From the IMG/VR virus record IMGVR_UViG_2609460059_000005: DNA of 10,335 nucleotides; one strand, 5' to 3'. The DNA is from a virus (lineage: Duplodnaviria > Heunggongvirae > Uroviricota > Caudoviricetes). Below the pieces are notes generated by a model. It was not told the DNA's origin. It was given only the letters and a program-made list of their open reading frames with translations, and did not search any database. The position numbers and the translations under genes were made by a program. Shown here one piece after another: positions 79 through 8,033 of the stretch. Numbering within the stretch: position 1 is the stretch's first letter; each line of letters starts with the position of its first letter.

Positions 79-1059
79 TTAGAGATCTAAGCTCTGCTGT
101 GTTGGTTCTGCTCTCAGATTTAAATCTTCACTAAAAATATAATCCATAATTTCTTTCAATTCAGTTGGCATTAGAAAAGATAAAGATTTTCGATTTTCCT
201 CTGAAAAGCTCAATTCCGGTCTTAAATTATATGTATTAGGTAAGTACGGATTAGCAATTTTCTTCGAATATTTATAAGCATATTCAACTGTGTGAGCAGT
301 ACCGCTTTTTATCTTCCACTCCACAGGAATAAGAGATGTGCACAGCGCAGCTTGAATTCTATTGCGTCTTACAAAATTTTCAGCGCTATAAATTTGGTCA
401 GGCAAATATTCAGTGACAATTGCACCTCCGCTTAAAACTATTTGATTGTAGAGATTTTTAGATCCCTTGGGATATTCTACAAAAATCCCGTTACCTAACA
501 CTGCAATTGTAGGTATCCCATAACGAATAGATTCATAATGGCATGATTGGTCAATCCCAGTAGCTAAACCACTTACAGTAACTATATCTTTTTCATACAA
601 CCCAGATACAATTAGTTTAACCAGAAAAATGCCATCATCTGTTGGCTTTCGCGTACCAACGATTGCAATTGATTTCTTATTAAGAATATCTTGATTCCCA
701 TGAACAAAAAGCCAAAAAGGAGGATCACTTATATTCTTTAAATTAGTTGGGAAAGTAGGTTGATCAAAAAAGGTTAGAACAATTCCTTTTTTATTTAATT
801 CTCTCGCTCGTTCTAATCCTTTCGCCCACAACTCTTGTTGAAATTCCTCCCACGCGATATCTTTGGGTAACGCAACCCTTAGATATCCAGCCAAAGCATC
901 AGCTGAACTAGCTTTTAAAAGATTTTTAAACCCTAGTTTGGATTCGTATATTTTACGGAGAGTCCAATAACCAACACCTTTTAAGCAGGTCAACGCAAGA
1001 AATGCTATGATTTCATTTTTCCAAAACTCTCTAATTTCAGTGTAATCTTTATCTTCCAT
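79..1059 (-). CDS. DprA/Smf-like (SLOG/Rossmann-fold) protein, 326 aa, in AT-rich cargo DNA
   Basis: Provided ORF. N-terminal segment LALTCLKGVGYWTLRKIYESKLGF resembles the DprA SAM/HhH-like domain. Core has SIAIVGTRKPT, VSGLATGIDQSCH, TIAVLGNGIFVEYP, RRNRIQAALC and KSGTAHTVEYA, matching the DprA Rossmann-fold pattern from memory. Composition is much more AT-rich than the adjacent sid/delta/primase block. Confidence 0.65.
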   Translation of the reverse strand: MEDKDYTEIREFWKNEIIAFLALTCLKGVGYWTLRKIYESKLGFKNLLKASSADALAGYLRVALPKDIAWEEFQQELWAKGLERARELNKKGIVLTFFDQPTFPTNLKNISDPPFWLFVHGNQDILNKKSIAIVGTRKPTDDGIFLVKLIVSGLYEKDIVTVSGLATGIDQSCHYESIRYGIPTIAVLGNGIFVEYPKGSKNLYNQIVLSGGAIVTEYLPDQIYSAENFVRRNRIQAALCTSLIPVEWKIKSGTAHTVEYAYKYSKKIANPYLPNTYNLRPELSFSEENRKSLSFLMPTELKEIMDYIFSEDLNLRAEPTQQSLDL

Positions 1060-3073: not shown

Positions 3074-5746
3074 TTAACCCGGCACCTCGCTGTTGAAGAC
3101 ATAGAGTCTGCGGGGATTCATCTCTGGCGGGCGAATGGTTGTCTGTAGCTTGCCATCGGTGGAGGGCAGCAGGTATCCACGATCCGCGCACAAACGCGCC
3201 ACCTTGCGCGGGTCAAATCCCCGGCAGATTTCTTTCCAGCCGGACGGCATGACGTAGAACGTGGTGACGGCTTCCGTGCCCTGCGCGGTACTCCCTTTCT
3301 CCACCCTGCGCCAGCCCACCATATTGCCGGGGCGGTTGCGCTCGTCGTGCCAGTCTGCAAAGCGGCTGTACTGATTCGCGGTAAAGAAACTGCGTACCTG
3401 CTCCAGCGCGGCAATATCTTCCTGATTGGCAGTATGCCCGCGATCTTTCAGCCATGCGTTCAGGCAGACGCGGGTTGCCCGCAGGGCTTCTCCCTCAGGC
3501 CAGCCGGTGATCCCCATACGGGTTGCCAGCTCGCCCGCCATCGCCACCAGTGCAAATCGGTTGACGGCCCGGCCCACCTGATTACCCGCATCTTTCGGGG
3601 TCAGCGCGGCGGTATATTCCTTCATCAGTGACTTTGCCTGTGACGTCAGCCCGTTAAGGTCAGCGGTCAGGGCTTTCAGCCACTCCCGGAACGGCGAACC
3701 GTAGTAGCTGGACGTGGCCCACTCCAGATGTTCCGCCAGTGCCTTGCCGCTGTCGAAGCCGTGCAGCTCCTCAAATACGCCAAATTTCCCGGAATCGCTG
3801 GGGATCTGGATCATCCTGACTTCCATCCCGGCAAAGGTACGCTCACCAGCTTTTGCCGCATGTTCGGTCAGTGACAGCTCGCCGGTTGAAAAGAACAGCA
3901 GCCGCCACTGCTTACGGGTGCGCAGCTCACCGTCCGTACCGGCACGGCCCTTGCCCTGACCGTTTGCCAGCATGTAGGCGATATTGCCTGCCTCGCGTCC
4001 GTCCACCTCCCGGATCTCATCGAGCATCATGGCGGCATCGTTGCGGCGGCTGGCGCATCCCTCCAGCGCGTTGCCGGTTGCCCGCCACGTCTGCCAGTAG
4101 TCAGGCCCGCCGCAGACGGAGGTTGCCGCTTTCATTGTGGTGGTCTTACCGTCCGTCGATTCCCCCTTGAGGTGATAGCCGCCGCCGTCCATACCAACCA
4201 ACCGTAACAGGGGGGCAGCAAACGCCAGACTGACGGCAAACGCCACGCGGGAGTTGCCGGTGCAGTAGCGGGAAACGTGCTCCCGCCATTCCTCCGTTGT
4301 GCCCGACACGCGGAAATCGCGACCCTGCACGGAAGTGGTCTGGAGAATGACACCCTCTGCACCTTCACCGCTGACCTCATCCTGCAGGACGTAAACCTGA
4401 CCATGCCAGCCGGTGCGGCTGACGCAGGTCACGCGGCGTTCCGGTTTACAAAGAGAGATATATTCCATAAGGCGTGCGCGGGCCTCACCGGTGGTGCTGA
4501 TATAGGACAGCCCGTTGACCAGCAGTACCCGGCGCAGCTCCTCACCGCTGCCGCTCAGCATTTCCATCGGCATCGCCCAGCGGCGGCGCTCACCCCACGT
4601 ATCTTCCCACTCCAGCAGTCGCCCGAAGTTACCGCCATCAGCATCGCAGGTGATTGCCGTTACGCGCAGCGGGTTGCATATTTTGACGTTCTGGATTTCC
4701 GTTTCACCGTTGCGCTGTACCTGTTTTTCATACCAGAGATATTCCTGGGTTAGACGGAACCCGTGCGGCAGTTGCGTGCGGCCCTCCCCGCACAGCACCA
4801 GACCGTTGCGAAAGGCTTCACGGGCACGGTTAATACCGTGCTCCCGATGGAAATCATTCCAGTCGGCCTTGATCTCTCCCGGTGGCAGCGTCATCCAGCC
4901 GCCAACGGCTTTTGCCGCCCGTTCAGCAAAAGATCTGCCGGGATTCTCGCCCCCGTCCTGAAAATCGTTATCACCGGCGATGATAATTTTTACCTCAGGC
5001 CAGCGTGCCCGCAGCGCCTGTGCGACGTTGGGCAGGTTGCCAGCAGATATGGCAGCCACTACGCATCCGGCGGTGATCTGGCTCACCGTCAGTGCCGTGG
5101 CGTAACCTTCGGTAATCACCACCTGTACCGGTGGTTCAGACGGTAACGGGCTGAGCGCCACAAACGCGCCTTTCATCGTGCTGCCGGGCAGTATGCTTTT
5201 TTCACCCGTCGGGGCGATAAGCTGCGCACCGGTCACGGCTCCAGCGTTGGTCGTGAGCGGTAGCAGCAGGGAGCCGGCAGGGAAATCCTTACCGCTGATA
5301 TGCTGCACGCTCCCGGTCAGGGGGGCCGGGTATCCGGCGAACCCTTTTCCGGTCAGATAGGGGCTTTCTCCCGTATGGCTCTCTTTCATCAGCGCCGCCA
5401 CGGTAAGGTTCATGTCGCGTTTAGGAGCTTTTTGCCTGGCGGGCTTAACGGGCAATTTCTGCACATCCGGAATATTAAGCACCTGCGCCACCTCCTGCGC
5501 GGCCTTTCTGACACCGTAACCGGTCATGAGCTTAACCAGATCCAGACCATCACCATTGCCGCACTGGCTGCAAATCCACGTCCCGCGCCCGTCAAGGTCA
5601 TCGAGGCGAAAACGATCCTTGCCCCCACATTTCGGGCAGGGACCGTGTCTGCCGTTTTCAGGTACATCAATACGCAGCATCTGCAGAATGACGGGCCATT
5701 TCCCCCGCGCGGCGGCTGAAATCTGCGTAACCGTCTGTGTTGTCAT
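3074..5746 (-). CDS. Primase-helicase (P4 alpha-like): N-terminal Zn-ribbon, Toprim domain, C-terminal Walker A/B NTPase; 890 aa
   Basis: Zn-ribbon CPKCGG...CSQCGNG. Toprim motifs VVITEGYATA and IIIAGDNDFQDGGENPGR. Walker A GESTDGKTT and Walker B-like MMLDEIRE. SD GGGGGA upstream. Start overlaps the stop of the upstream ORF (ATGA). Confidence 0.9.
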   Translation of the reverse strand: MTTQTVTQISAAARGKWPVILQMLRIDVPENGRHGPCPKCGGKDRFRLDDLDGRGTWICSQCGNGDGLDLVKLMTGYGVRKAAQEVAQVLNIPDVQKLPVKPARQKAPKRDMNLTVAALMKESHTGESPYLTGKGFAGYPAPLTGSVQHISGKDFPAGSLLLPLTTNAGAVTGAQLIAPTGEKSILPGSTMKGAFVALSPLPSEPPVQVVITEGYATALTVSQITAGCVVAAISAGNLPNVAQALRARWPEVKIIIAGDNDFQDGGENPGRSFAERAAKAVGGWMTLPPGEIKADWNDFHREHGINRAREAFRNGLVLCGEGRTQLPHGFRLTQEYLWYEKQVQRNGETEIQNVKICNPLRVTAITCDADGGNFGRLLEWEDTWGERRRWAMPMEMLSGSGEELRRVLLVNGLSYISTTGEARARLMEYISLCKPERRVTCVSRTGWHGQVYVLQDEVSGEGAEGVILQTTSVQGRDFRVSGTTEEWREHVSRYCTGNSRVAFAVSLAFAAPLLRLVGMDGGGYHLKGESTDGKTTTMKAATSVCGGPDYWQTWRATGNALEGCASRRNDAAMMLDEIREVDGREAGNIAYMLANGQGKGRAGTDGELRTRKQWRLLFFSTGELSLTEHAAKAGERTFAGMEVRMIQIPSDSGKFGVFEELHGFDSGKALAEHLEWATSSYYGSPFREWLKALTADLNGLTSQAKSLMKEYTAALTPKDAGNQVGRAVNRFALVAMAGELATRMGITGWPEGEALRATRVCLNAWLKDRGHTANQEDIAALEQVRSFFTANQYSRFADWHDERNRPGNMVGWRRVEKGSTAQGTEAVTTFYVMPSGWKEICRGFDPRKVARLCADRGYLLPSTDGKLQTTIRPPEMNPRRLYVFNSEVPG

Positions 5747-6126
5747 ACTTCCCCCTGATGCAGCGCCACACCCGTGCTGCAGAAGTCATCAAAGGCCGCC
5801 GGAAGCGTGCGGTACAGCTCCGCCATCACTTCACAGCCGCGCACAGTCAGTACCGGCGGCGCGGTCAGCAATGATGGTTCCAGCATGTCAGTCAGCAGCG
5901 CCAGCGCCGCCGCTGCTCCCTGTGCTTCGCCATATTCGTTAATCAGTGCGCACTCAATATGCAGGGCAATGGCCATTTCAATACGTTCAACCGTCAGGCT
6001 GTGCGGACCATATTGATCGCAGCCGGTTTCAGTCAGCGCTTTCTGGCGCCATGCCGATGCAATAGCCCGCCGGTAAAGCGCAGTAGTCATTTCTGCCGGA
6101 AAAATAGAAACCTGCGGCTGGTTCAT
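5743..6126 (-). CDS. Hypothetical protein, 127 aa, in the primase operon
   Basis: Provided ORF. Strong SD AGGAGG 7 nt upstream. ATGA start/stop overlaps with both neighbouring genes indicate translational coupling. Confidence 0.6.
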   Translation of the reverse strand: MNQPQVSIFPAEMTTALYRRAIASAWRQKALTETGCDQYGPHSLTVERIEMAIALHIECALINEYGEAQGAAAALALLTDMLEPSLLTAPPVLTVRGCEVMAELYRTLPAAFDDFCSTGVALHQGEV

Positions 6127-6407
6127 TGGGTGCCTCCTTCAATCAGTGCGCAACTGTGTGCAATATCCGTCAAATCTGCCCGCAGGTACTCCATCAGCGC
6201 GGCAATGCCTGGCGCACAGCCTGCATCCAGCGTTCCGCCCTGAGACGGGTATTCAGAAAAGAGAAGCTGGAGCATGTCGCAGGCATTTCTTGCGCGAGTC
6301 AGCTTTCCGAAACCGTCCTCTGACAATCCATAGGCAAAAGCACCAGTATTGTGTTTTTCAGGCAAAGTGTGGCCCTGAGCACTGTTGTGCCCGTTTGAAA
6401 AATTCAT
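6123..6407 (-). CDS. Hypothetical protein, 94 aa, in the primase operon
   Basis: Provided ORF. SD GGAG upstream. Stop overlaps the start of the next gene (ATGA). Confidence 0.55.
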   Translation of the reverse strand: MNFSNGHNSAQGHTLPEKHNTGAFAYGLSEDGFGKLTRARNACDMLQLLFSEYPSQGGTLDAGCAPGIAALMEYLRADLTDIAHSCALIEGGTQ

Positions 6408-6438
6408 CGTGGATTACTCCGTTTTCAGCGGTGTTTTG

Positions 6439-6792
6439 TCAGAGAAACTTTGAATAGTGACTGTCGTCAGGTTCAGCAGAACGCCGTATGCTGCGCTCCC
6501 GCCAACGGGTAAATACCACAGACGGATGTAGTGTCAGAGAGCCACTACCGCCCTTCGGAGCTGGCGAAGGTTTAAAGAGCGGCGCATCAAACAGGCGCGT
6601 ATACCGCTGTTCAAACCATGCCAGAGGGCAGGAAGAAAGCTGGTTGTCGCTGTCATGACGTATCAGCACTTCACAGCTGAATTCAGGATTAACCAGCGCC
6701 ACGGAGGGCGAGGCTTCAATTAATCGGATGATTGTGACGGTCCAGCCACGTTCATGCTGCCAGCGTTCGCCGGGTTGCGGATAATTATGCAT
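6439..6792 (-). CDS. Hypothetical protein, about 117 aa, in the primase operon
   Basis: Start set at the internal Met (MHNYPQPGERW...) because GGAGGTG lies 5-6 nt upstream of it; the first ATG of the provided ORF at 6822 has no SD. Confidence 0.5.
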   Translation of the reverse strand: MHNYPQPGERWQHERGWTVTIIRLIEASPSVALVNPEFSCEVLIRHDSDNQLSSCPLAWFEQRYTRLFDAPLFKPSPAPKGGSGSLTLHPSVVFTRWRERSIRRSAEPDDSHYSKFL

Positions 6793-6961
6793 GTTCACCT
6801 CCGCAGGGAATGCGACCGGCAAAGCTCAGCACGTAGTCCGGGGCCAGTCTGCGCCGCGCTGAGCGCTCGTTATCTGCGGTGATCCTTAACATCACAGGAC
6901 AGGCATTGCGTTGACTGCGGTTGATCGCAGCAAATAACCAGGTACACTTCTTTTTAGCCAT
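6785..6961 (-). CDS. Small basic protein, 58 aa, first gene of the primase operon; possibly Icd/Ash-like
   Basis: Only the C-terminal part of the provided 245-aa ORF is taken as coding: ATG at 6961..6959 is preceded by GAGGAAACGAAG (SD GAGGA). Sequence is MAKKKCTWLFAAINRSQRNACPVMLRITADNERSARRRLAPDYVLSFAGRIPCGGEHA. The Icd/Ash-like label is from memory of small P4-type proteins and is weak. Confidence 0.4.
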   Translation of the reverse strand: MAKKKCTWLFAAINRSQRNACPVMLRITADNERSARRRLAPDYVLSFAGRIPCGGEHA

Positions 6962-7051
6962 CTTCGTTTCCTCATACAGCGGATTGGTCAGAGGCCCGGT
7001 TAGTGTTGCTGCACTGCCGGGCTTCGCCTTTTTCACCCTAGAACACTCAAG

Positions 7052-7130
7052 GTGTGGCCCACTATAAATATTAGGTGTGGCCCACGTCAATGCTTTTCTT
7101 TGTTCTTTTCCCGTGTATACTGTGGCCCAC
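7052..7130. promoter_or_regulatory. Divergent promoter region with three copies of the palindromic operator-like motif (G)TGTGGCCCAC
   Basis: GTGTGGCCCAC at 7052-7062 and 7075-7085, TGTGGCCCAC at 7121-7130. The core GTGG-C-CCAC is dyad-symmetric. Minus-strand sigma70-like promoter: -35 TTGACG (complement of 7085-7090) and -10 TATAGT (complement of about 7061-7066), with copy 2 in the spacer. Plus-strand -10 TATACT at 7115-7120, with copy 3 at the predicted start site. Confidence 0.5.
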
Positions 7131-7151
7131 CAAACATACGGAGATTCAGTA

Positions 7152-7337
7152 ATGGCTACCGGTACAAAGAATGCTAAATCACAAGCCTTAAAGGCACGAG
7201 TGCCACATGACGTAGTTGAAGCGATGGAAATGGTGAAAGAAGAGGACGAAAGTACGTCACAATTCATCATTACATCCATGCAAAGTGAGATCAAACGCCG
7301 CCAGCGCAGGAAAGTTAAGCCAGAGCAAGGAGGCTGA
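7152..7337 (+). CDS. Small putative DNA-binding regulator, 61 aa, ribbon-helix-helix-like
   Basis: Start taken at the internal ATG at 7152 with SD GGAG 8 nt upstream. Sequence MATGTKNAKSQALKARVPHDVVEAMEMVKEEDESTSQFIITSMQSEIKRRQRRK has a strand-helix-helix pattern. The operator repeats lie just upstream, suggesting autoregulation. Confidence 0.5.
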   Translation: MATGTKNAKSQALKARVPHDVVEAMEMVKEEDESTSQFIITSMQSEIKRRQRRKVKPEQGG

Positions 7338-7401
7338 ATAGAGAAGCTAACAGACGTTCTCTCAGGCTCCATGCTAATTTCAGTAAGCGACAATATTTTT
7401 A

Positions 7402-7433
7402 AGCCCACAAACTCAATATGTCGGGCTTTTTTA
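7402..7433 (+). terminator. Putative rho-independent terminator between the convergent small regulator and alpA
   Basis: AGCCC...GGGCT hairpin at 7402-7426 followed by TTTTTTATT. Sits between two convergent genes and may act in both directions. Confidence 0.4.
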
Positions 7434-7664
7434 TTAGTGATTTGCATGCCGTTCACCACGAGAGGCATATATTTGCTCTTGAATCCAGTGATCGACTTCG
7501 CTTTCAACAAATGAAATTGCACGAGTTCCTATTTTTACTGGGCGGGGAAATGTATTATTTGAAAGCTGTTTGTAAAGCCATGCCTTGCTACGCTGAACGC
7601 GTCTTAACACCTCTTTTGCTGAAATAAGAGTCTGATTATCTGAAAGGTTGTTTGCATATTCCAT
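7434..7664 (-). CDS. alpA: AlpA/Vis-family phage transcriptional regulator (excisionase-like HTH), about 76 aa
   Basis: Start set at the internal Met (MEYANNLSDNQ...) with SD GGAG 8 nt upstream. LISAKEVLRRVQRSKAWLYKQLSNNTFPRPVKIGTRAISFVESEVDHWI matches the AlpA-family pattern. Gene lies near a P4-type integrase, as is typical. Confidence 0.75.
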   Translation of the reverse strand: MEYANNLSDNQTLISAKEVLRRVQRSKAWLYKQLSNNTFPRPVKIGTRAISFVESEVDHWIQEQIYASRGERHANH

Positions 7665-7928
7665 CTTGTTACTCCGTGTTCTACTTAAGTTCACGGTGAC
7701 TTTAAACACTGAAAAAAAGTGATTCTAGTGATAATGGAATCTATTAATACAAACGCTGATTCTATTGAAACGTGATAGTTTCTACTGAAAAAAGAAATAA
7801 TGTTCATATGAAAGAACACGAGAAGAGGAAAACGCACAACAAAATAAAATCAATAAAATTCATATAGATAGCATTGCAGCACAAACAAATCATACGTTAG
7901 AAGGTATTATTGCGTTTTATCGATTCAT

Positions 7929-8000
7929 ATTACTCAGGGATTACCACAGTATTACACTGTATTACCCTCTATAGCCCCTTAGAGCCTCTTGTAGCCCCTT
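7929..8000. repeat. Helically phased short repeats: ATTAC four times at 10-11 bp spacing, then three tandem 10-bp units (ATAGCCCCTT / AGAGCCTCTT / GTAGCCCCTT)
   Basis: ATTAC at 7929, 7940, 7951, 7961. Tandem units at 7971-7980, 7981-7990, 7991-8000. Located in the AT-rich spacer between the 212-aa gene and alpA. Confidence 0.45.
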
Positions 8001-8033
8001 CTAATGAGAGATATACAGATAGTAATAATAAAT

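What the first reader, a model, noticed from the sequence alone, without database searches (positions are those of the whole stretch)
7040..7340. Bidirectional control region with a triple palindromic operator and a divergent RHH-like small regulator
Three copies of the dyad GTGG-C-CCAC are spaced 23 and 46 bp apart and overlap a near-consensus minus-strand promoter (TTGACG, about 17 bp, TATAGT) that drives the Icd-like-to-primase operon, and also the start region of the divergent 61-aa gene. This looks like a protein-based immunity or replication switch, whereas P4 is described as using an RNA (cI) immunity mechanism. The 61-aa product is the obvious candidate repressor.
Basis: partly seen in the sequence, partly recalled or inferred. 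Interest (0 to 1): 0.5.

Follow-up and report, generated by a model that had tools for sequence, protein, structure and literature searches.

The report
Satellite repressor switch with three operators
The three repeats are real operators for a tiny Arc-like DNA-binding protein that most likely keeps a P4-like phage satellite silent, taking the place of the RNA-based immunity of P4 itself and coming in more than twenty matched protein/operator specificities.

Summary
The box occurs exactly three times at 7054, 7077 and 7122, spaced 23 and 45 bp (not 46). The promoter spacer is 18 bp.

The functional unit is an 11-bp box, GTG-N5-CAC. It is a dyad only in this allele.

In about 50 related loci from Enterobacterales, three boxes sit at the same positions. 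O2 lies in the spacer of the leftward promoter. O1 lies at its -10/+1. O3 lies at +1 of the small gene's own promoter. The box core changes in step with the beta-strand of the 61-aa protein: 25 strand classes and 23 boxes.

A natural swap in E. coli replaces only the boxes and the first ~50 codons of the gene. The primase stays 98% identical and AlpA 93%.

The cassette lies where P4 carries its CI/seqA RNA immunity, which is absent here.

Two extras: a conserved SymR-like antisense RNA over the Icd-like start codon, and a long Eta-like frame running antisense through the switch.

Nothing has been tested experimentally.

The parts
7052..7062 (.). O1 box GTGTGGCCCAC. It overlaps the -10 hexamer and the predicted start site of the leftward promoter.
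   Evidence: An equivalent box is present in nearly all related loci, overlapping or abutting the -10 or lying 11-12 nt downstream, and sometimes inverted.
7075..7085 (.). O2 box GTGTGGCCCAC. It fills the spacer of the leftward promoter, and its last base is shared with the -35 hexamer.
   Evidence: It sits at a fixed position, -76 from the ylcI ATG, in about 50 loci.
7120..7130 (.). O3 box CTGTGGCCCAC, directly after the -10 of the regulator's own promoter (predicted +1 region).
   Evidence: It sits at a fixed position, -31 from the ATG, in about 50 loci.
7061..7090 (-). Leftward promoter (equivalent of P4 PLE): TTGACG 7090-7085, 18-bp spacer, TATAGT 7066-7061.
   Evidence: TTGAnn abuts O2 in 50 of 52 distinct loci, and TAnnnT lies 17-18 nt away in 50 of 52.
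7093..7121 (+). Rightward promoter of the regulator: -10 TATACT 7116-7121, with a weak T-rich -35 near 7093-7098.
   Evidence: TATACT is present in 44 of 53 distinct loci; the -35 is weak.
7152..7337 (+). 61-aa YlcI/YnfO-family protein, a predicted Arc-like ribbon-helix-helix repressor. SD GGAG lies at 7140-7143.
   Evidence: (NF041551, 65 bits, cut-off 30).
7401..7433 (+). Hairpin with a T-run that ends the regulator gene. On the minus strand the same hairpin is followed by A's, so it is probably leaky for transcripts coming from alpA.
   Evidence: inference from sequence only.
6785..6961 (-). Icd-like protein (58 aa), first gene of the leftward operon. It is homologous to the C-terminus of P4 eta/kil.
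   Evidence: 52% identity over 46 aa, E 1e-13. An Icd-like first gene is read in most related loci.
3074..6961 (-). Leftward operon: icd-like, three small ORFs (6439-6798, 6123-6407, 5743-6126 DUF5375) and the primase (3074-5746). The genes overlap or abut.
6921..7044 (+). Candidate cis-antisense RNA (about 6956 to 7040). It has an anti-start-codon stem, an anti-SD loop and a terminal hairpin with a T-rich tail. Its candidate promoter, TTGATC 6921-6926 / TACACT 6943-6948, lies inside the icd-like gene.
6785..7447 (-). Long open frame (ATG 7447, 220 aa; 245 aa if counted from GTG 7522). It starts 11 nt before the alpA stop, runs antisense through ylcI and the operators, and ends as the Icd-like protein. 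This resembles the P4 eta/kil layout.
   Evidence: P4 description.
7434..7664 (-). AlpA/Vis-family gene, convergent with the regulator gene.
   Evidence: PF05930, E 1.4e-11.

Best explanation
The region is the immunity and control switch of a P4-like satellite integrated at tRNA-Leu.

The 61-aa YlcI/YnfO-family protein is an Arc-like ribbon-helix-helix dimer. It binds three 11-bp boxes, GTG-N5-CAC (here GTGTGGCCCAC). O2 occupies the spacer, and O1 the -10/+1, of the leftward promoter. That promoter drives the icd(kil)-like gene through to the primase operon and is the counterpart of P4 PLE. Occupancy therefore blocks RNA polymerase and keeps replication and the toxic Icd-like gene off. O3 lies at +1 of the protein's own promoter and gives negative autoregulation.

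Specificity lies in the outward-facing beta-strand residues 12 and 14, with invariant R16. Different satellites carry different matched pairs and are therefore heteroimmune.

Status of each step:
- Shown: the three boxes change together with the protein, their positions relative to conserved promoter hexamers are fixed, and a natural cassette swap occurs.
- Inferred: binding, the sign of regulation, one dimer per box, and the role in immunity.
- Inferred more weakly: derepression comes from the helper. It could act through an anti-repressor, or through read-through from the alpA promoter, with the long Eta-like frame translated across the switch as for P4 PLL.
For: Concerted evolution of the boxes:
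- Within a locus, box cores are 90-91% identical. Between classes they are 32% identical. There are 25 beta-strand classes and 23 distinct boxes.
- Partial Mantel r(box, beta-strand | rest of protein) = 0.36, permutation p <= 2e-4.
- Mutual information peaks at residues 12 and 14. In the hhalign register these align with Arc Q9 and N11, and invariant R16 aligns with Arc R13. That these Arc residues contact bases is established knowledge of the Arc-operator complex.

Natural swap (window versus E. coli 2017.15.01CC):
- Nucleotide identity is about 93% on the left flank and about 88% on the right, but 57% over 7035-7290 (50-nt windows stay low from 7030 to 7317).
- The primase is 98% identical, AlpA 93% and YlcI 60%.
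- All three boxes change to GTGAATCGCAC.

Promoter geometry is conserved in 50 of 52 distinct loci, and TATACT precedes O3 in 44 of 53.

Fold and family:
- AF2 pLDDT 81.6, with an extended N-terminus and two helices.
- Family hit NF041551, E 3.6e-18.

Slot equivalence with P4 immunity:
- C4 and isrK are detected in P4 but not in the window or in 13 related loci.
- The Icd-like protein matches the P4 eta/kil C-terminus.

Against: There are no binding, expression or phenotype data.

The boxes and the beta-strand codons lie within 100 bp of each other. Their association across loci is therefore partly simple linkage, and the permutation test ignores phylogeny.

The sequence evidence for an RHH is weak:
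- hhalign against Arc gives probability 4%.
- There is no PDB sequence hit.
- Foldseek finds nothing.
- The monomer model shows no beta-strand.

The -35 of the regulator's own promoter is poor.

Box spacings of 23 and 45 bp are not whole helical turns, so cooperative binding is not evident.

The inducing signal is unknown.
Confidence: 0.75

Rival explanations
1. The RHH protein and its boxes act mainly as a silencing and addiction module for the toxic Icd-like gene. Together with the antisense RNA, this would resemble symE, which is controlled by LexA plus SymR. On this reading the module is not satellite immunity over replication.
Against: The same promoter also drives the primase operon through overlapping genes, so replication is controlled as well. 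The regulator has only about 6 residues after helix 2, which leaves no toxin-binding tail. It is not co-transcribed with any toxin. This reading overlaps with the best explanation rather than excluding it.
Confidence: 0.12
2. The boxes are a partition centromere or replication iterons, bound by an RHH centromere-binding protein of the ParG/omega type during the plasmid state of the satellite.
For: There is a weak Pfam hit to the RHH C-terminus of a centromere-binding ParB (PF18064, E 0.15; also precomputed for P0015). Omega and ParG also bind short non-palindromic repeats in either orientation (my own knowledge). One box class contains the P4 ori octamer TGTTCACC (for the box; the octamer is recalled from memory).
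Against: No ParA or other partition partner was identified within the window or annotated in two relatives. There are only three boxes, each placed precisely on promoter elements. The boxes do not follow the primase.
Confidence: 0.06
3. The boxes are read by another factor (primase, AlpA, the long Eta-like product or a host protein), and the small ORF is merely linked to them.
For: Linkage alone can produce a box/protein association. The swapped cassette also encodes part of the long antisense frame.
Against: The primase is 98% identical and AlpA 93% identical across a complete box change. A host factor cannot explain 23 box types within one bacterial order, nor different types within one genome. 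The long frame is absent in 12 of 47 loci that keep their boxes. The most variable and most box-informative residues are the predicted DNA-facing ones.
Confidence: 0.04
4. The protein activates one or both promoters rather than repressing them.
For: The rightward promoter has a poor -35, which is typical of activator-dependent promoters.
Against: All three boxes lie inside or downstream of the core promoter elements, and none lies upstream of a -35.
Confidence: 0.03

Closest known systems
P22 immI region: Arc and Mnt ribbon-helix-helix repressors at the divergent Pant/Pmnt promoters
   Different: Here one protein controls three single 11-bp boxes, rather than a 21-bp two-half-site operator bound by a tetramer. 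Sequence similarity is marginal. The target is a satellite replication operon, not an antirepressor.
P4 immunity (CI RNA with seqA/seqC; Rfam C4 and isrK)
   Same: The genomic slot is the same, between the vis/alpA homologue and the kil/Icd-like C-terminus of the eta-like frame, upstream of the primase operon. Both have a promoter internal to a long frame that is coupled to alpA.
   Different: P4 acts by RNA-mediated premature termination. Here there is no C4/isrK RNA, and instead a protein with operators on the promoter.
SaPI/PICI master repressor Stl/Rpr
   Same: It is divergently transcribed from the replication module and would hold the island quiescent. The authors of the Gram-negative PICI study state that a global repressor in those elements is unclear.
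   Different: Stl is described in the PICI paper only as a master repressor; that it is a larger helix-turn-helix protein is my recollection, not tested here. Helper-protein derepression is unknown for this element.
Omega repressor of pSM19035 and ParG (RHH proteins that bind arrays of short non-palindromic repeats)
   Same: One dimer binds each short asymmetric repeat, and the repeats are tolerated in direct or inverted orientation (O1 is inverted in several classes).
   Different: Those systems use longer arrays of contiguous heptads and are coupled to partition. Here three spaced boxes sit on promoter elements.
SymE/SymR of E. coli, and P1 c4-icd-ant
   Same: A toxic small gene is held off at two levels, a repressor at the promoter plus an antisense RNA over the ribosome-binding site. 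SymR's promoter lies inside the target ORF, as predicted here. Sub-threshold SymR hits recur at the same place and strand.
   Different: Scores of 24.9-40.4 bits are below Rfam's gathering score of 61. The target protein is unrelated to SymE. P1 c4 acts in trans.

Membership tests
YlcI/YnfO family (NCBIfam NF041551) | Score above the curated cut-off of the family HMM | tested here: met
   65.3 bits against a cut-off of 30, E 3.6e-18, residues 9-50. RefSeq names the gene this way in E. coli relatives.
Ribbon-helix-helix (Arc/MetJ/CopG) DNA-binding proteins | N-terminal strand followed by two helices | tested here: met
Ribbon-helix-helix (Arc/MetJ/CopG) DNA-binding proteins | Obligate dimer with an antiparallel two-stranded sheet | not testable with these tools
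   No multimer prediction is available.
Ribbon-helix-helix (Arc/MetJ/CopG) DNA-binding proteins | The sheet residues read the operator bases | tested here: inconclusive
   The evidence is indirect. Box-core variation carries the most mutual information with residues 12 and 14, which align with the base-contacting Q9 and N11 of Arc, while R16 is invariant like Arc R13. There are no binding data.
Ribbon-helix-helix (Arc/MetJ/CopG) DNA-binding proteins | Detectable sequence homology to a solved RHH | tested here: not met
   The PDB profile search gives no hit at E<=10. hhalign to Arc gives probability 4%. Pfam gives only PF18064 at E 0.15.
P4-type RNA immunity (C4/CI plus isrK/seqA) | C4 and isrK RNA elements downstream of the early promoter | tested here: not met
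   Neither was found in the window at E<=1 or in 13 related loci. Both are found in P4, at 74.9 and 60.8 bits.
P4-like satellite | Integrase, AlpA, alpha-type primase, Psu and Delta; Sid and Epsilon also expected | tested here: inconclusive
   Int, AlpA, a TOPRIM/DUF927 primase, Psu and ogr/Delta are present. Sid and Epsilon were not recognised. The gene order (int-alpA-...-primase-psu-delta) differs from the P4 order described.
Type II toxin-antitoxin RHH antitoxin | Co-transcribed toxin partner and a C-terminal toxin-binding extension | tested here: not met
   The gene is monocistronic. It is followed by a hairpin with a T-run and by the convergent alpA. Only about 6 residues follow helix 2.
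SymR antitoxin RNA (RF01809), for the antisense RNA | Score at or above the Rfam gathering threshold (61 bits) | tested here: not met
   24.9 bits in the window and 30.5-40.4 bits in five relatives. All are full-length hits at the same place and on the same strand.
PICI/SaPI master repressor (Stl/Rpr) | Divergent from the replication module; relieved by a helper phage protein | not testable with these tools
   The divergent arrangement is met. Homology to Stl was not searched for directly; Pfam, NCBIfam and PHROGs returned no such family. Helper-dependent derepression cannot be tested here.

The most novel reading that the evidence does not exclude
The YlcI/YnfO-type RHH is the missing master repressor of a large group of Gram-negative satellites (P4-like and PICI/cfPICI-like). 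It replaces P4's RNA immunity as an exchangeable cassette. It is written antisense inside a translated Eta-like frame, so that helper-triggered read-through from the alpA promoter both bypasses the repressor and silences it. Two or three beta-strand residues would set a readable recognition code, giving more than 20 natural orthogonal repressor/operator pairs.
Probability: 0.4. Interest if true: 0.75.

Novelty: new member of a known kind. Interest (0 to 1): 0.6.

Why it matters
This gives a function, operators and a mechanism to a protein family that is currently only a name (YlcI/YnfO). The window's own module is found by DNA similarity in 331 of 5,426 complete E. coli genomes. Homologues occur across Enterobacterales.

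It offers a concrete candidate for the repressor of Gram-negative satellites. The PICI literature calls the existence of such a repressor unclear.

It shows that P4-like elements can exchange an RNA immunity cassette for a protein one in the same slot.

The natural series of about 23 matched box/beta-strand pairs makes a directly testable recognition code. It is also a possible source of small orthogonal repressors.

Each claim can be tested with gel shifts, reporters and two or three point mutations.

Tried and rejected
Negative searches:
- Foldseek against the PDB found no match.
- A profile search of PDB sequences found no match.
- tblastn of the 61-aa protein against 50,697 phage records found no match.
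- blastn of the region against phages gave only a 43-bp hit.
- Literature searches for YlcI/YnfO found no functional study.

Ideas rejected:
- A fourth operator inside the primase gene at 3714. It has an imperfect flank and is absent from the swapped allele.
- The primase, AlpA or Icd as the box reader.
- The leader hairpin as a minus-strand (mRNA) structure or a P4 CI-like RNA. G.U-only pairs number 98 on the plus strand against 1 on the minus strand, there is no C4 hit, and the fold z-score is -3.47 against -1.18.
- A P2-type late promoter (TGT-N12-ACA) upstream of alpA as a general feature. It occurs only in the window and one close relative.

Unresolved:
- The N-terminal 187 aa of the long antisense frame match no Pfam or PHROG family.
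- The upstream region of K-12 ylcI in DLP12 shows no comparable three-box layout by eye. This was not analysed further.

Full report
**The observation**

The 9-mer GTGGCCCAC occurs exactly at 7054, 7077 and 7122. The repeat is longer than reported: AGGTGTGGCCCAC twice, and TACTGTGGCCCAC once. Allowing one mismatch on both strands gives 8 matches against 1.96 expected, and 1 of 200 shuffles reaches that number.

A fourth exact 9-mer sits at 3714 inside the primase gene. It lacks the flanking T and has no counterpart in an allele-swapped relative. I treat it as chance.

The minus-strand promoter is TTGACG, an 18-bp spacer and TATAGT (7090 to 7061), matching 10 of 12 consensus positions. The small ORF is 7152-7337 (61 aa), preceded by GGAG.

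**Context**

The window is an E. coli-type P4-like satellite next to tRNA-Leu, 99% identical to one in APEC E19025. All genes are on the minus strand except the small one. In order they are:
- integrase
- a 212-aa ORF
- AlpA
- the small gene (plus strand)
- an Icd-like protein
- three small ORFs
- a Zn-ribbon/TOPRIM/DUF927 primase
- Psu
- ogr/Delta
- a DprA-like gene in the variable hotspot

Sid and Epsilon were not recognised. The gene order differs from the canonical P4 order described.

**The small protein**

It belongs to the NCBIfam family YlcI/YnfO (65 bits against a cut-off of 30). I found no functional study of this family.

hhalign puts residues 9-34 in register with Arc residues 6-32, but only weakly. 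Foldseek and a PDB sequence search found nothing. So the fold assignment rests on the model, not on sequence homology.

**The decisive evidence is comparative**

A first alignment with three E. coli relatives showed two genomes with a different allele of the protein. At the same three positions they carry GTGAATCGCAC instead of GTGTGGCCCAC.

I then collected 60 homologues and 57 loci from species-representative genomes of Enterobacterales. In nearly all of them three boxes of the form (G)TG-N5-CAC are present:
- O3 starts 31 nt before the ATG, straight after a TATACT hexamer.
- O2 starts 76 nt before the ATG.
- O1 lies 97-113 nt before the ATG, and is inverted in several classes.

Within a locus the five core positions are 90-91% identical between boxes. 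Between protein classes they are 32% identical. There are 25 beta-strand classes and 23 distinct boxes.

Box distance correlates with beta-strand distance after controlling for the rest of the protein (partial Mantel r 0.36, p <= 2e-4). It barely correlates with the intervening spacer (r 0.11).

Mutual information with the box core peaks at residues 12 and 14. In the hhalign register these correspond to Arc Q9 and N11. R16, which corresponds to Arc R13, is invariant, as are the outer GTG and CAC. That these Arc residues contact bases is established knowledge, not something tested here.

Examples of matched pairs (residues 11-17, then box):

| Beta-strand | Box |
|---|---|
| QALKARV, QSLKSRV | GTGTGGCCCAC |
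| QQLNARF | GTGAATCGCAC |
| KKLEARV | GTGTCAGCCAC |
| KRFDVRV | GTGTCGGACAC |
| QMTTVRI | GTGAAATACAC |
| LQVSVRL | GTGAACACCAC |
| QKLQARA | GTGGACTCCAC |

**Linkage alone could produce an association, so two further points matter**

First, three separate boxes change together in every lineage. That requires a trans-acting reader which differs between elements.

Compared with E. coli 2017.15.01CC, the window is about 93% identical to the left and about 88% to the right. Over 7035-7290 it is only 57% identical, and 50-nt windows stay low from 7030 to 7317. Across this swap the primase stays 98% identical, AlpA 93%, and YlcI drops to 60%.

The cassette therefore contains only the boxes and the first ~50 codons of the small gene. 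It also contains a stretch of a long antisense frame, but that frame is missing in 12 of 47 loci that keep their boxes.

**Promoter geometry**

A TTGAnn hexamer abuts O2 in 50 of 52 distinct loci. A TAnnnT hexamer follows at 17-18 nt in 50 of 52. The two exceptions are variants that have lost O1 and the -10, probably by recombination between the O1 and O2 repeats (E. coli MDK6L1 and a Xenorhabdus locus).

O2 therefore fills the spacer of the leftward promoter. O1 overlaps or abuts the -10 in one group of loci and lies 11-12 nt downstream in another. O3 covers the predicted start of the rightward promoter, whose -10 is TATACT in 44 of 53 loci and whose -35 is weak. All three are repression positions.

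I conclude, by inference, that the protein represses the icd-to-primase operon and autoregulates its own gene.

**Relation to P4**

In P4 itself, Rfam finds the CI RNA (C4, 74.9 bits) and seqA (isrK, 60.8 bits) between ORF88/vis and the kil end of eta. Neither is found in the window or in 13 related loci.

The window's Icd-like protein matches the C-terminus of that P4 ORF (52% identity over 46 aa, E 1e-13). The protein cassette therefore sits in the same slot as P4's RNA immunity cassette.

The statement that a global repressor in Gram-negative PICIs is unclear is.

**Side finding 1: an antisense RNA**

The leader between O1 and the Icd-like start holds a structure that is conserved on the plus strand. 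RNAalifold predicts 22 pairs, 16 of them with compensatory changes. Cells that pair only as G.U number 98 on the plus strand and 1 on the minus strand. The plus strand folds at -33.2 kcal/mol (z -3.47), and the minus strand gives z -1.18.

The RNA would run from about 6956 to 7040. Its elements are:
- a stem over the complement of the start codon
- the anti-SD sequence in a loop
- a terminal hairpin with a T-rich tail in many loci

A TAnnnT hexamer lies 7-9 nt upstream in nearly all the loci read (by eye), although the codons it overlaps vary.

Rfam's SymR model hits this place and strand below threshold in the window and in five relatives, at 24.9-40.4 bits against a gathering score of 61. 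A covariance model built from 32 loci finds exactly one copy, in the same place, in 55 of 61 sources. It finds none in P4 or in DLP12.

The layout matches SymR, a 77-nt antisense RNA whose promoter lies inside the target ORF. So RNA control is not absent from this element. It acts on translation of the toxic first gene rather than on termination.

**Side finding 2: a long antisense frame**

One minus-strand frame stays fully open from the Icd-like ATG across the operators and the whole small gene in 35 of 47 distinct loci. In 26 of those it is in frame with icd. The other two frames average 6-10 stops over the same stretch.

Its start codon overlaps or abuts the stop of the upstream gene (AlpA or a Bro-like gene) in about 24 loci. 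In the window, ATG 7447 lies 11 nt before the alpA stop.

This mirrors P4 eta/kil as described: a promoter and an immunity determinant inside a frame that is coupled to the alpA homologue and translated only from the late transcript. The N-terminal part matches no family.

I suspect the frame is kept open so that read-through transcripts from alpA can be translated across the switch. This is inference.

**Verdict**

This is a new member of a well-known kind, a small RHH repressor with promoter-embedded operators, in an uncharacterised family. The context makes it useful: a candidate master repressor of Gram-negative satellites with many natural specificities.

Noticed in passing
window 6921-7044 (+); same place in L005-L060 and L063: A conserved structured RNA lies antisense to the SD and start codon of the Icd-like gene. 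It has 22 pairs, 16 with compensatory changes. G.U-only pairs number 98 on the plus strand against 1 on the minus strand. Sub-threshold SymR hits recur here. A covariance model finds one copy per locus in 55 of 61 sources and none in P4.
   Followed up: yes
window 6785-7447/7522 (-): A long open frame runs antisense through ylcI and the operators and ends as the Icd-like protein. One such frame is open in 35 of 47 loci. Its start overlaps or abuts the stop of the upstream gene in about 24 loci. The layout resembles P4 eta/kil. Its N-terminal part matches no family.
   Followed up: partly
L004 (E. coli MDK6L1) and L020 (Xenorhabdus anantnagensis), equivalent to window 7050-7072: These variants lack O1 and the -10 of the leftward promoter. 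The deletion is 23-25 bp, exactly one repeat spacing, and probably arose by recombination between O1 and O2. The elements are probably promoter-dead.
   Followed up: partly
window 3714-3722: A fourth exact GTGGCCCAC lies inside the primase gene. Its flank differs (CGTGGCCCAC) and there is no counterpart in the allele-swapped relative, so it is most likely chance.
   Followed up: yes
window 7801-7818 (-), with TAGAAT at 7765-7760: TGT-N12-ACA lies upstream of alpA at a distance that would fit a P2 Ogr/Delta-type late promoter (consensus recalled from memory). It is present only in the window and one close relative among the 20 loci checked.
   Followed up: partly
window 7700-8030 (-): Several short direct repeats lie upstream of alpA: AAGGGGCTA(C/T)A twice, GTAATAC three times, and TAGAATCA two or three times. 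They may be binding sites for Int, AlpA or another regulator.
   Followed up: no
L054 5001-5069 and L049 4969-5037 (-): The Rfam int-alpA RNA motif (RF02996) scores above its gathering threshold in two related loci. It was not found in the window.
   Followed up: no
window 79-1059 (-); same position in L001 and L063: This is a variable cargo slot beyond psu/delta. It holds a DprA-like gene here, an ABC-three-component system in APEC E19025, and a retron St85 effector in 2017.15.01CC. That fits the known P4 defence hotspot.
   Followed up: no
L024/L048, L025/L043, L032/L039, L033/L050, L040/L055, L044/L045/L056: Genomes that hold two or three of these modules always carry different box and beta-strand classes. 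This is consistent with heteroimmunity, but the sample is too small to be significant.
   Followed up: partly
L062 5252-5446 (-) (E. coli K-12 DLP12 ylcI): The family's namesake lies divergent from nohD, next to the cos region of a lambdoid prophage. It has an Arc-like R-F-P motif but no obvious three-box layout upstream. Its role there may differ.
   Followed up: no
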